Positions 9,877-15,800 of a DNA stretch of 64,000 nucleotides are shown here, piece by piece; position 1 is the stretch's first letter, and each line of letters opens with the position of its first letter. The notes beneath the pieces were generated by a model that saw only the letters and a program-made list of their open reading frames with translations, did not search any database and was not told the DNA's origin. The DNA comes from Chrysomallon squamiferum. Lineage: Eukaryota; Animalia; Mollusca. The translations under genes and the position numbers were made by a program. The DNA lies in assembly GCA_012295275.1 (NCBI GenBank), contig CM022679.1:4402001-4466000 (forward strand). Reading direction: 5' to 3'.

Positions 9877-12800
9877 CTGGAGAAAACACGTAGCAATGAT
9901 TGTGTTTAGAAATAAAAAAAAAAAAACCCACCAATAAATAAGACATGCTGGAGTAATAAATAACCATTGACATACGTTAACTAGATACTCTACTAAACAT
10001 TTATACCAGCTCCTACAACAGAATTCATATAGCAGGTGCAAAACCAATCCACAAACACACGCATTCCCCCATATTTCTTTTTCCCCCTGTTTTACCATCG
10101 CTTTCTTTCTTTATGTCTGTCTGTATTGTCTATTACCATTTAACATTCTGACCCTACAATTGTTTTGACGAAACATGGAGATTCAAGAATTGTTTGTTTT
10201 AACCATCAGTATATGTTGTAACAGGCTGTCTAAATAACAAAGCAGGAAATAATAATAATAACCACAACCACAACAACAATAATAACAACAACAATATCAA
10301 CATCAACATAGTAATAATAATAATCATAAAGTGATGGTAATCATATGATGATGATGATGATGATAATGATTGTGTTAGTGATAAAGGAGAAAGGATGAGC
10401 AGAAAAATAAGAAAATATACCTTTCTAAATATCACAGGAACGGCAGTTCTTGAACCTCGAAAGTATAGGTTTACTACGACGACGGATAACAATGTTGACA
10501 GTGTAATAAGAATCATGTTGAGACAATAGTACGCACCTGAAATGAAAAAAGTAGTACGTGATATTTGGACTTCAGTCAAATGGAAAACTATTACGTGATA
10601 TTTTGACTTTCGTGAAATGCAAAACAACTTCATGACTGTAGTGAAATTAAAAACAGTACGTGACTTTAATGAAATGTAAAAATAGTACGTGATATTCTCA
10701 CTGTAATAAAATCGAAAAATAGTACATTATATTTTGACTTTCGTGAAATGTAAAAACACTAAGTGATATTTTGACTTGCTGAAATGTAAAAATAATAATT
10801 TTCTTTGTAAATATTAAAATTACAGGTTTGACATTAATATATATATATATATATATATTTAAAACCACCACAAAAGTAAAGTATAAGAAACTGAAGTGGA
10901 TTTTTATTTTAAATACATTCAGTAATCAAATAAACCACTTCTAACATTTCTATAACAAATACTATCATATTATTAACACTCATTCTAGTGACTGCTATAC
11001 ATACTATTACTACTACTACTAGGACTGTAACTCTTAGAAATAATAGAAATAATAGCAGTTTCCTTCCACTACTAATACTAATAACAAAATTACTGTGAAT
11101 AAGAATCTTCTGATATCATTAATATTACTAACAATATTAAAACTAACATTACGACTACTAATACTCCTAATGCTAGTGCTTCCACTTCATCTACAACTAC
11201 TTCCACTTTTTCCGCCACAACTACTGACACTGTTAACATAATGATGATAACAATGATGACGATGATGATGATGATGATGATGATGATGATGATTAAGATG
11301 TACTCACCTATGAGTGGGATGGACGAAGCGGCAGGTGGTGTGGACTCTGCTAACAAGAGAAGCAGAACAAAGAAGGCCACAAATATATTCATTCCTGAAA
11401 AACACGACAGACACGTAACACGGGTGTACTCACTGATGGACGGACGTGTCGTCTTACTCACGTACAGACACACAGACAGACATATGGAGGGATTGAAATG
11501 AGTAAAATTAGTTTGTCGTTATATACGTGGATATATGTAAATATTACATTCTTAAAAGATACGCAAATTTGTCTGTTCATCTGTTACACGTTTACATACA
11601 TACATACATAAAAAATACATATATACACATACATACAGAATCATCGCCTTTCTTGCAATAGTATTGGAAACTTGTTTTACTCCCACTAATACTTTTGCAA
11701 ATGGTATCATCTTAACATCGAAAGGAACCAATAAAAATAAACAGAGCAAATAATTTAATATCAAGCGATAACGTAGCTCTTTCAGCAGCAGTATCTTTGA
11801 TACCAAGGTTTGTTACACACGAATACTTAGCAGCATTTCTAGCATCAATGCATCCGAATCCAAGAACAATGCTTTTATAGAGATCACACGTGACAGCTTG
11901 AATACACTCTGGCCCTCTGCTGATAGGACCACTAATAAAACATGACACTGTAGTCATGCGTCTGCGGTTTTGTATTCAGGGACGAAGTTAGACGCATTAG
12001 TAAGTCTAAAAGTTATACTCGTGAGAAAAGGAGTTAAAAATTAAACACGAGGGAGGCTGTTGTCGAGTTCTGAATATGATGAATATTTGACACTGGGGTC
12101 TCGGAGGTTTGTAGTCAGAAAAAAAAAAATTTACATTTTGAAAAGGAAAAAAAAAAGAAAAAGAAATAAACGAATTAATATCGTCCTGATCTACATGAAG
12201 ATTTTTTGTTGTTGTTTAAAATAGCAAGCTCGCAAATAAATAGTTCTAGAGTTCCAGTGGTGACCTTTTTAAGTGACACTCGCTAGACACTGAGTACCTT
12301 GGACACTGATTTAATATATTCTCGAATATTTTTGGTCACGTAATTCAAAAATTAATAAAAAAAGAATTAAGAGTAGTGGGTGAGAGCAGAACGTAGCATA
12401 TACATTCCTATACTTGTGTGATAAAATCATAATGTAATATACCATTTAACACTATAAATGTAGAAGTGATACACGACGATGTAAAAATGACTAAGATATA
12501 AAAGTATTGACACGCCTATCATCAAAGTTTTTGCCACCACTGTTCTAGACAACTGGGATGACAGTGAGGCTGGGGAAATGGAGTCATGAAAACGAAGAAA
12601 ACAGAACGAGACAAACAGACACAGAAACATTATGTATAGTGATAACTGCAAGAAAGACATAGAAAAACAGCAAAAGAAAACAATGAATGTGAAAGAGGGG
12701 ATGAAATGTGTTTGTGTGCATGTTTCTCTATGTTTGGATCGATGGATGGAAGTGTATATATGAATATATGTATGTATGTATGTGCATGTATGCATCAGTG

Positions 12801-15800
12801 TATGTCTGAATGACTGTGTGTATATATGTACGTAGTATGTATGTACGCAGTCTATGTGTATCTTGGAACACACGTGTGTGTATATTTATTTATTCTAATT
12901 TAAAACTCAGAACACACAACGTACCCAACTGCATTTTAGCCGGCGACTCGGGCGGAAGCCAGAAAAGCACCAACGTGAGGGACGACAGCAGCACGCACGG
13001 CAAGATGAGGATGTAGCTGTAGAACGCCACCTTGCGGCGCATCTGAAGCGTGAACGTGAGGTCGACGTAGGGCTCTGGACAGCACTTGTAGTACTTCACG
13101 TTCCGCTTGGCGGACGAATTGAGAATGTGCCACTCGTTGCTGCGAATGTAGTCGGTCATGTCAAAGCCCTCCGTCGTGTTGTACAGCAGCTTCAGGTCCA
13201 GCTTCGACCCGTCGTACGTCCACGACCCGAACTTCAGGTGACACTGCTGCACGTCGAACGGGAAGTGACGTATGTCTATGGAGCATGAGCTTTTGTAAAC
13301 CGCCTGCGGAATCCAGATGACTGTCCCGTCTGAGCTGATGACAGCCAGAGCCTCTCTCTTCTCCTCCAGTCGAGTGTCAGCGCTGAAAGTTTAAACAAGA
13401 CGTGTACTTGTTTATTTATTTATTTATTTATTTATTTATTTATTTATTTTTATTTATTTATTTATTTTTTTTATTTTTTTTTTTTTTTTTTTTATTTTAT
13501 TTATTTTTTATTTTATTATTATTTTTTTTTTAATTATTATTATTTTTTTTTTCTGTATTTATTTATTTATTTATTTCTGTATTTATTTTTTTCTTTCTTT
13601 CTTTTTTCTTTCTTTCTTTTTCGTTTTCTTTAATTTTCTTTATACTTTTTCTATTTATTTCTATGTCTCTTTATTTATTTATTTATTTATTTATGTATTT
13701 ATTCATTTTCATATTAATTATTTCACATACATACATACATACATACAGACATACATACATACATATATACATACATGCATATCTGCATATATTGATATAT
13801 ATACATGCAACCAGACAGTGATATATACATATACAAACTGGCAACAACATACACATTCATACATATATTCATATATACATACATATGCACATACATACAT
13901 ACATTCACACCTACATACATTCATACATACAAACATATAGATATGCACACACACACACACACACACACACACATACTTACACAACAAATGTATATTGCAT
14001 AAAAAATTAAGGCAACATCAAAAGATAATAATAACAGCAGTTCACAACATCTTAATTCCCAGGGTTTTTACATTCAAGCACGCCTGGCTGGTCAGTGTGA
14101 CTATTCTGTTACTAACTTACTAATTATAGAGTTTAACGTCGGGTGTCCAGATGTCCTGACTGGGAACTCTGACTGTGGTGATGTTGTCATACAGCGACTC
14201 GTTCCAACTCAGGTACATGTCAACCCACCTCTGAAAATACGTAACAGTTCATTCATTACCTACAGGAGTAGATTAAACTGTGGATTTTGTTGTTGTAGTT
14301 TGTCACTGTAATGTTAGGAGGGGTGGTTTTGGTGGGTTTTGTTCAGACTATACGTGGTACAAGAGGTAAAAATAAATACAGTATAACAGAATATGATGTA
14401 AGTGTGTATGTGTGTGTGTAAGTGTGTATGTGAGGATGTGTGTGTCTGTGTGTGCATTGTGGGTGCGTCTGCATGGAAGGGGATCATTTTATTTTTGTTT
14501 TATTTAGTATTGTTCTCTTATTTATTTGCCTATTTGGGTGATTTATTTGTTTACCTTTTTTAACATTTCGTTTATAATATTTTATTGTTGTTAGTTTATT
14601 TGGTTTTTTGGGGGATTTTAAGTTACTATTATGTTTCAGTACGTTCAAAGTATCTATTATTATTTTATTTTATTTTTTGTTTTTCAATTTATTTCTTTAC
14701 TTTTTTTATTTATTTATTAATTTTTTTTTTTTTTTTTTTTTTTTAGTGGGAGGTGGTTATTTGTTAGTTTTTCTTTTGTTGTTGTTATAGTTTTTTTTTT
14801 TTTTTTACTCACATAATTAGCCCACACGTTGGTGCTCAGTATCTGGTTTCGTTCGTCGAGATCAAGAATCTGGATGAGACTGAGTCCGTAGTAAATCGTC
14901 AGCGTCTCATTCTGCTGTTTCACTGGTCTCCCCATCTTCCCCCGCGCCTTGTACTGGTCCAGCAGGTTCTGAATCAGCAGCTTCTCGTCCGACATCTCCG
15001 CGGTACCTATCAGCAAAACACTCTGTTAGTAGTTTGATAAGATTCACATCTTAAAACAGTTCACTGGGATGATGATCAAGTTAACAGTGATAATGGTGAA
15101 AATGATGATGAAGATGAAAGTGATGAAGATGAAGATAATGATGGTGATGATGATGAAAGTGATGAAGATGATGAAGATGAAGATAATGATGATGAAAGTG
15201 ATGAAGCTGAAGATAATGTTGGTGATGATGATGATGAAAGAGATGAAGATGATGATGATGATGATGATGAAAGTGATGAAGATAAAGATAATGATGATGG
15301 TGATGATGATGATGATGATAACTCTGTCGGGTGTGGTGATTATGGTAGTACGTGGGGAATGGAAAATAAAAATCAAAAAGTGTATTTTCGATTATGTTAT
15401 GACTATCAGCCGGAAAAGAAGATCAGTATAATAGCAAATTAATAATAATGATAATAATAGTAGCAGTAGTAGAAATAGTGGTAGTTGTACTAGTAACGAT
15501 AAGGACATGAATAACAATATGAACAGAAATAATAGTAACAGCAACAATTCAGTAATAATAATAATAATAATAATAATAATAATAATAATAATAATAATAA
15601 TAATAATAATAATATCGACGTCGACGACAATAATAAAGGTATAATAATAATAGATGATTACTTAAAGCAACGATGAAAATGATGAAAATAATAACAATGG
15701 CAACAACAATTGTCTTAACCATGGTCATAATAACAAAGAATATTATAAAGATAATGAGGAGATGATACGACAGACAAACGAAAACTAAATAAACATCGAT

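What the first reader, a model, noticed from the sequence alone, without database searches (positions are those of the whole stretch)
11308..12960. Alpha-type nAChR with an anion-channel selectivity filter (PAK instead of GEK)
Seen: the M1-M2 linker reads [14 protein letters not shown], placing Pro at -2' and Ala at -1', while the ligand site is fully nicotinic (loop A Tyr, loop B Trp, loop C Y-x-CC-x-x-x-Y, loop D Trp). Established: cation-selective nAChRs carry G-E-K here; GABA-A/glycine receptors carry P-A-R; Lymnaea LnAChR-B/F/I/K and schistosome ACC subunits are nAChR-derived chloride-channel types with this Pro-Ala motif. Inference: the gene encodes an inhibitory ACh-gated chloride channel subunit, possibly homomeric, because both principal and complementary loop residues are present. 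The linker is the same length as alpha7 (LPADSGEK), so the Pro is a substitution rather than an insertion. The clade is known, but generic annotation would mislabel this gene as a cationic alpha7/alpha9/10.
Basis: partly seen in the sequence, partly recalled or inferred. Interest (0 to 1): 0.8.

Follow-up and report, generated by a model that had tools for sequence, protein, structure and literature searches.

The report
Snail acetylcholine-gated chloride channel gene
This is an intact snail-type nicotinic receptor gene whose pore is letter-for-letter that of the known chloride-passing subunit B of the pond snail Lymnaea, so it likely makes acetylcholine inhibitory; it is an ordinary new member of a published family, although automatic annotation usually gives such genes the names of excitatory receptors.

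Summary
Observation confirmed. The window holds one intact minus-strand nAChR gene (48498..9406; six shared exons, two alternative signal-peptide exons giving 495 or 499 aa). The M1-M2 linker reads LPPESPAK (Pro -2', Ala -1', Lys 0' at 12943-12935). Loops A, B, C, D and the vicinal cysteines are canonical. The linker is as long as in alpha7, so the Pro is a substitution.

The gene is the ortholog of Lymnaea LnAChR-B (ABA60381.1): 66% identical, with an 82-residue identical run over M1, M2 and most of M3. It nests with B, apart from LnAChR-K and alpha7. The published AChRB family is defined by this PAK motif, and octopus AChRB1 is a chloride channel by ion substitution.

One correction: a full set of binding loops does not predict homomers; orthology to B does. 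Ion selectivity was not measured here. Known family, new species: low interest. A residual puzzle is how the pore selects anions without the Pro insertion or Thr13' needed to convert alpha7.

The parts
48447..48498 (-). Alternative first coding exon 1a (17 codons + 1 base, signal-peptide-like); gives the 495-aa form
   Evidence: Best match of 43 candidate ATG..G|GT exons to the Gigantopelta X2 N-terminus, same length; open frame; no variant listed inside it, 12 listed in its flanks, in 3 covering runs of 4. Splicing inferred.
26721..26784 (-). Alternative first coding exon 1b (21 codons + 1 base; further in-frame ATGs at 26799 and 26820); gives the 499-aa form
   Evidence: Best match of 43 candidates to the Gigantopelta X1 N-terminus, CAG|gtaag donor. 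Splicing inferred.
14813..15006 (-). Exon 2: start of the ligand-binding domain, loop D Trp
   Evidence: GT-AG borders; PF02931 E 3e-8
14121..14230 (-). Exon 3: ligand-binding domain up to loop A Tyr
   Evidence: GT-AG borders; tblastn of homologs
12925..13382 (-). Exon 4: Cys-loop (13285-13241), loop B, loop C with vicinal cysteines (13093-13067), M1, M1-M2 linker, start of M2
   Evidence: PF02931 E 1e-34 and PF02932
12935..12943 (-). Pro(-2')-Ala(-1')-Lys(0') selectivity-filter motif
   Evidence: Read directly; unchanged in contigs of 3 covering runs
11308..11394 (-). Exon 5 (87 bases, phase 1-1): M2 from 4' on (Asn6', Val9', Val13', Glu20') and the M2-M3 loop
   Evidence: single copy in the window
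10421..10536 (-). Exon 6: M3
   Evidence: GT-AG borders; tblastn
9406..9876 (-). Exon 7: intracellular loop, M4, stop codon
   Evidence: PF02932 E 2e-7

Best explanation
The gene is the ortholog of Lymnaea LnAChR-B, an alpha-type nicotinic subunit with Pro-Ala-Lys where cation channels have Gly-Glu-Lys, and it likely forms an acetylcholine-gated chloride channel, probably as a homopentamer. Shown here: intact frame, canonical binding loops, the motif, equal linker length with alpha7, pore identity with LnAChR-B, and tree position. From family knowledge (recalled): five subunits assemble, ACh binds the aromatic box at subunit interfaces, and the Cys-loop and M2-M3 loop open the M2 pore. Inferred: Ala at -1' removes the ring of negative charge that repels anions in alpha7; Pro at -2' sets the linker so that Lys 0' favours anions; chloride flows; and the cell is hyperpolarised or shunted wherever the chloride reversal potential is below threshold.
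For: An 82-residue identical run with LnAChR-B (residues 234-315, all of M1, linker and M2, most of M3), against 12 with LnAChR-K and 5 with cationic LnAChR-A. 79% identity to B over the ligand-binding-to-M3 core, against 56% to K and 41% to A. Tree: B clade 99/97, whole PAK clade 100/100. Octopus AChRB1 expressed in oocytes responds to ACh (EC50 1.9 uM), and the reversal potential of the O. bimaculoides ortholog shifts in low chloride but not in sodium-free solution; the paper says all members of the group carry PAK (bioRxiv 2025.04.02.646353, section 8 read). The Octopus protein in my B clade shares a 39-residue identical run across linker and M2. SmACC-1 is described as a functional nicotinic chloride channel (PMC4055736, passages). 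LnAChR A and B are listed as functional by electrophysiology (PMC11601209, passage) and as cation versus anion groups (PMC4193815, passage).
Against: No current was measured for this protein. The primary LnAChR-B paper (van Nierop 2005) was not held, so B's homomeric chloride current rests on secondary passages and my recall. I could not link the preprint's gene id for AChRB1 to a protein accession, so its identity with the Octopus B-clade protein is inferred. Two of three Octopus family members gave no homomeric current. Alpha7 needed a Pro insertion plus V13'T as well as E-1'A to become anionic (PMC8011927, passage); this protein has neither the insertion nor Thr13'. The tree kept the pore columns, used LG+G4 without a mixture model on 57 hand-picked proteins of 338, and holds no named alpha9/alpha10, LnAChR-F, LnAChR-I or SmACC sequence.
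Confidence: 0.9

Rival explanations
1. It is an anion-channel subunit that in the animal works mainly in heteromers with other PAK paralogs, including non-alpha ones, and not as a homopentamer.
For: Molluscs have several PAK paralogs. One Lymnaea paralog (P0189) lacks the vicinal cysteines and so looks like an accessory subunit. Two Octopus family members are silent alone.
Against: Octopus AChRB1 gave currents when expressed alone; LnAChR-B is recalled as a homopentamer. This rival changes the assembly, not the ion.
Confidence: 0.25
2. The channel passes chloride but excites or merely shunts, because the cells that express it keep internal chloride high.
For: General physiology of chloride channels (recalled); nothing here shows where the gene is expressed.
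Against: Cholinergic inhibition correlates with AChRB1 expression in the octopus optic lobe cortex (passage).
Confidence: 0.1
3. It is a cationic or poorly selective nAChR; Pro-Ala without a length change or Thr13' is not enough to switch selectivity.
For: The alpha7 conversion needed the insertion and V13'T. Glu20' is kept.
Against: The pore is identical to LnAChR-B, and PAK-clade members are measured anion channels.
Confidence: 0.04
4. It is a silent or decaying copy.
For: None found.
Against: Open frame over seven exons with GT-AG borders; 87% identity to the Gigantopelta protein; only synonymous exonic differences in the contigs laid on exons 4 and 5.
Confidence: 0.02

Closest known systems
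Lymnaea stagnalis LnAChR-B (ABA60381.1 / Q2XWL1; P0122)
   Same: 66% identical over 516 columns; M1, linker, M2 and most of M3 identical (82 residues); same binding-loop residues; same tree clade.
   Different: Divergent signal peptide and M3-M4 loop (495/499 versus 527 aa). Function is published for Lymnaea and untested here.
Gigantopelta aegis XP_041364591.1 / XP_041364592.1 (annotated 'alpha-10-like'; P0146, P0003)
   Same: 87% identical; sister in the tree (100/93); the same pair of alternative N-termini, 499 and 494 aa against 499 and 495 aa here.
   Different: Automatic annotation only; no functional data seen.
Octopus AChRB1 and the AChRB family (bioRxiv 2025.04.02.646353; an AChRB clade of 457 sequences in PMC13174522)
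   Same: PAK motif and nAChR ancestry; the Octopus B-clade protein is 61% identical with the same linker and M2.
   Different: Which Octopus accession is AChRB1 was not verified.
Schistosoma SmACC-1/2 (PMC4055736)
   Same: Pro-Ala motif in an nAChR-derived clade with the Lymnaea channels; trematode PAK proteins fall in the same large clade in my tree.
   Different: A separate flatworm branch, Val for Gln at 2' in the trematode proteins seen, much longer proteins. SmACC-1/2 themselves were not in my set by name.
Human alpha7 nAChR and Lymnaea LnAChR-A (cationic)
   Same: Same domains, binding loops and linker length; alpha7 is the best solved-structure match.
   Different: GEK filter; Ser2'/Thr6'/Leu9' in place of Gln/Asn/Val; separated by a long 100/100 branch.

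Membership tests
Cys-loop pentameric ligand-gated ion channel | Ligand-binding domain with C-x13-C loop and four membrane helices | tested here: met
   Cys152-Cys166, four hydrophobic segments; PF02931 and PF02932 above cut-off
Alpha-type nAChR subunit | Y-x-C-C in loop C, plus loop A Tyr, loop B Trp, second loop C Tyr, loop D Trp | tested here: met
   Pattern W,Y,W,Y,C,C,Y, as in LnAChR-A and -B; aligned to alpha7
AChRB / anion-selective nAChR clade | PAK motif at -2' to 0' | tested here: met
   12943-12935; definition
AChRB / anion-selective nAChR clade | Groups with LnAChR-B/K and flatworm PAK subunits inside the nAChRs | tested here: met
   43-row clade, 100/100
AChRB / anion-selective nAChR clade | ACh-gated chloride current | not testable with these tools
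   Inferred from relatives
LnAChR-B ortholog group | Closer to B than to the other PAK paralogs | tested here: met
   14-row mollusc clade 99/97 with B; K and two unnamed Lymnaea paralogs outside. F and I were not identified by name.
LnAChR-B ortholog group | Functional as a homopentamer | not testable with these tools
   Recalled for B; currents from lone expression reported for octopus AChRB1
Cationic alpha7-type nAChR | Glu at -1' (GEK) and grouping with alpha7 | tested here: not met
   Ala at -1'; outside the alpha7 clade
Alpha9/alpha10-type nAChR (the usual automatic label) | Acidic residue at -1' and grouping with alpha9/10 | tested here: not met
   Ala at -1'; nested in the PAK clade. 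No named alpha9/10 was in the tree.
GABA-A / glycine-type anion channels, including nematode ACCs | Ancestry in the GABA/glycine branch; linker with an extra residue | tested here: not met
   The 60 listed solved-structure hits are all nicotinic-branch receptors; linker length equals that of GEK channels. The longer linker of that branch comes from passages, not from an alignment of my own.

The most novel reading that the evidence does not exclude
The AChRB clade reached anion selectivity by a route different from both GABA/glycine receptors and the engineered alpha7 switch: no inserted residue, no Thr13', but a rebuilt inner pore with amide rings (Gln2' in 110, Asn6' in 124 of 167 PAK sequences) and loss of the 9' leucine gate (Val in 116, Leu in 15 of 167, against Leu in 96 of 97 GE sequences). 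If Gln2'/Asn6' are needed together with Pro-Ala, the family is a natural test of what fixes charge selectivity, and no structure of it turned up in the PDB copy. This is a property of the whole family, not of this gene.
Probability: 0.3. Interest if true: 0.45.

Novelty: new member of a known kind. Interest (0 to 1): 0.17.

Why it matters
For this genome the annotation changes sign: the gene should be called AChRB (LnAChR-B ortholog), a likely inhibitory ACh receptor, not 'alpha-10-like'. That matters for reading neuronal expression data. It adds no new biology, because the family, the motif and the chloride current are published for snail, octopus and schistosome members. The open points belong to the family: how selectivity arises without the proline insertion, and whether the M2-less isoforms seen in databases are real.

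Tried and rejected
No whole genome is held, so paralogs outside the window could not be counted; the window has one nAChR gene only. No RNA holder was listed, which says nothing about expression; the splice junctions are therefore predictions. Run X7 barely covered the region and X2 did not cover exon 1a. Van Nierop 2005 was not held. A search for accession numbers did not link AChRB1 to a protein. Rfam at gathering thresholds: 0 matches in the window. Three look-ups in earlier findings gave nothing. A second copy of the M2 exon, as in one Octopus paralog, was sought and not found; only low-complexity matches. My first exon borders were off by one base and were corrected. The loop C columns were off by one and were redone. 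Supplements of the bioRxiv preprint, which hold its alignment and tree, could not be seen and bear on the AChRB1 mapping.

Full report
Gene. The window is AT-rich animal DNA with long introns. It holds one nAChR gene, on the minus strand; tblastn of 161 held proteins found no second one. Six shared exons (15006-14813, 14230-14121, 13382-12925, 11394-11308, 10536-10421, 9876-9406) have GT-AG borders and join into an open frame. Each is the best match, among 43 candidates, to one of the two N-termini annotated for the closest relative. No RNA data were available, so the splicing is predicted.

Observation. The linker reads LPPESPAK, with Pro -2', Ala -1' and Lys 0' at 12943-12935. The alignment to human alpha7 has no gap across the linker. 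An alignment-free count agrees: 21 residues from the M1 proline to the end of the motif in the query, 196 of 197 PAK, 112 of 112 GEK and 9 of 9 GER proteins, with 20 of 338 unmatched. Contigs from 3 of 4 runs laid cover the exon and keep the motif; their exonic differences are silent.

Identity. Searching with exon 4 returned lophotrochozoan proteins, led (after one multi-domain cnidarian record at 46%) by gastropods at 80-86%. Cluster look-ups named Lymnaea LnAChR-B (ABA60381.1) and LnAChR-K (ABA60389.1), and a third search gave LnAChR-A. The predicted protein is 87% identical to Gigantopelta aegis XP_041364591.1 and 66% to LnAChR-B, so the host is likely a gastropod. It shares an unbroken 82-residue run with B over M1, the linker, M2 and most of M3. 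Over the 31 residues of linker plus M2, 44 of 167 complete PAK sequences held are identical to it; the set includes isoforms and is biased by my three seeds. An IQ-TREE tree of the core of 57 hand-picked proteins plus the query places it beside Gigantopelta (100/93), inside a 14-member mollusc clade with LnAChR-B and one Octopus protein (99/97). That clade lies inside a PAK clade of 43 (100/100) that also holds K, annelid, brachiopod, rotifer and flatworm proteins, apart from the alpha7 group. Limits: pore columns were kept, no mixture model was used, and F, I, SmACC-1/2 and alpha9/10 were not present by name.

What is known. MacDonald et al. (PMC4055736, passages) describe the Pro-Ala clade of schistosome and Lymnaea nicotinic chloride channels. 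The octopus preprint (bioRxiv 2025.04.02.646353; passages and section 8) names the family AChRB, states that all members carry PAK, reports orthologs in molluscs, flatworms and annelids, and shows chloride selectivity of AChRB1 by ion substitution; AChRB2 and AChRB3 gave no current as homomers. A mollusc-wide survey counts 457 AChRB sequences (PMC13174522, passages). Pirri et al. (PMC4562599, passages) state that the molluscan anion channels derive from cationic ancestors. The founding paper, van Nierop 2005, was not held; that LnAChR-B is a homomeric anion channel is taken from citing passages and from recall.

Mechanism. Shown: the residues and the ancestry. Inferred: ACh bound at subunit interfaces opens a pore that has lost the Glu -1' ring, which a simulation paper names as the main chloride barrier of alpha7 (PMC8011927, passage). 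Pro -2' likely sets the linker so that Lys 0' favours anions, and chloride flow inhibits where the gradient allows. All three Octopus PAK paralogs that I hold have the full loop set, while two of the three Octopus family members are silent alone. If these are the same three genes, which I infer but did not verify, loop completeness does not predict homomers; orthology to B is the better guide.

Against the reading. The same simulation paper recalls that alpha7 became anionic only with E-1'A, V13'T and an inserted proline, whereas the schistosome paper calls Pro-Ala sufficient. This protein has no insertion and keeps Val13'; Thr13' occurs in 0 of 167 PAK sequences. Since relatives in this clade conduct chloride, this marks a gap in the mechanism more than a doubt about the ion. 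The clade's pore also differs at 2' (Gln 110 of 167), 6' (Asn 124) and 9' (Val 116, Leu 15), where 97 GE sequences have Ser/Thr (96), Thr (94) and Leu (96). No solved structure of the clade was found; human alpha7 is the best match to LnAChR-B. My seven paper searches listed no title on a mutational test or structure of an AChRB pore, but the library lacks most subscription papers, including the founding one.

Verdict. A real, intact gene, correctly read by the first stage, and a routine ortholog of a characterised receptor. Novelty: new member of a known kind. Interest 0.17.

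Noticed in passing
window 11308-11394 (exon 5); P0131, P0152, P0154, P0078, P0086, P0187, P0011, P0018: The M2 exon is 87 bases with the same phase at both ends, so skipping it keeps the frame. 8 of 189 PAK-type database proteins examined lack exactly this exon, in several paralogs and in gastropods, bivalves and octopus. 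It may be a real pore-less isoform or an annotation artefact.
   Followed up: partly
P0157/P0148 versus P0095/P0149/P0156 (Octopus): One Octopus PAK paralog has isoforms with two different versions of the M2 exon (Leu or Val at 13', different M2-M3 loop), suggesting mutually exclusive pore exons. The window has one copy only.
   Followed up: partly
window 57779-57830 (-): A possible third first exon: 17 codons, strong donor, preceded by an acceptor-like stretch, in frame with exon 2. No homolog support.
   Followed up: partly
window 11378-11380 (-): The 9' gate residue is Val, not the near-universal Leu; this is typical of the clade (116 of 167).
   Followed up: partly
P0025, P0038, P0039 and other bivalve orthologs: Many bivalve B orthologs have Phe for the second loop C Tyr, and other residues at the first loop C position (33 of 167 show the otherwise complete pattern ending in Phe); agonist sensitivity may differ.
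   Followed up: no
P0189 (Lymnaea), P0177 (Gigantopelta): One PAK sub-clade has His for the loop A Tyr, and the Lymnaea member lacks the vicinal cysteines: candidate accessory subunits.
   Followed up: no
P0003, P0066, P0119, P0177, P0198; P0007, P0048, P0170: PAK paralogs share one contig length in Gigantopelta (81,591,406) and in Lottia (2,867,671), which hints at linkage; paralogs may lie beyond this window.
   Followed up: no
window 12264-12567: Short high-copy repeats in the intron that splits M2 (very high contig depth and loose ends).
   Followed up: no
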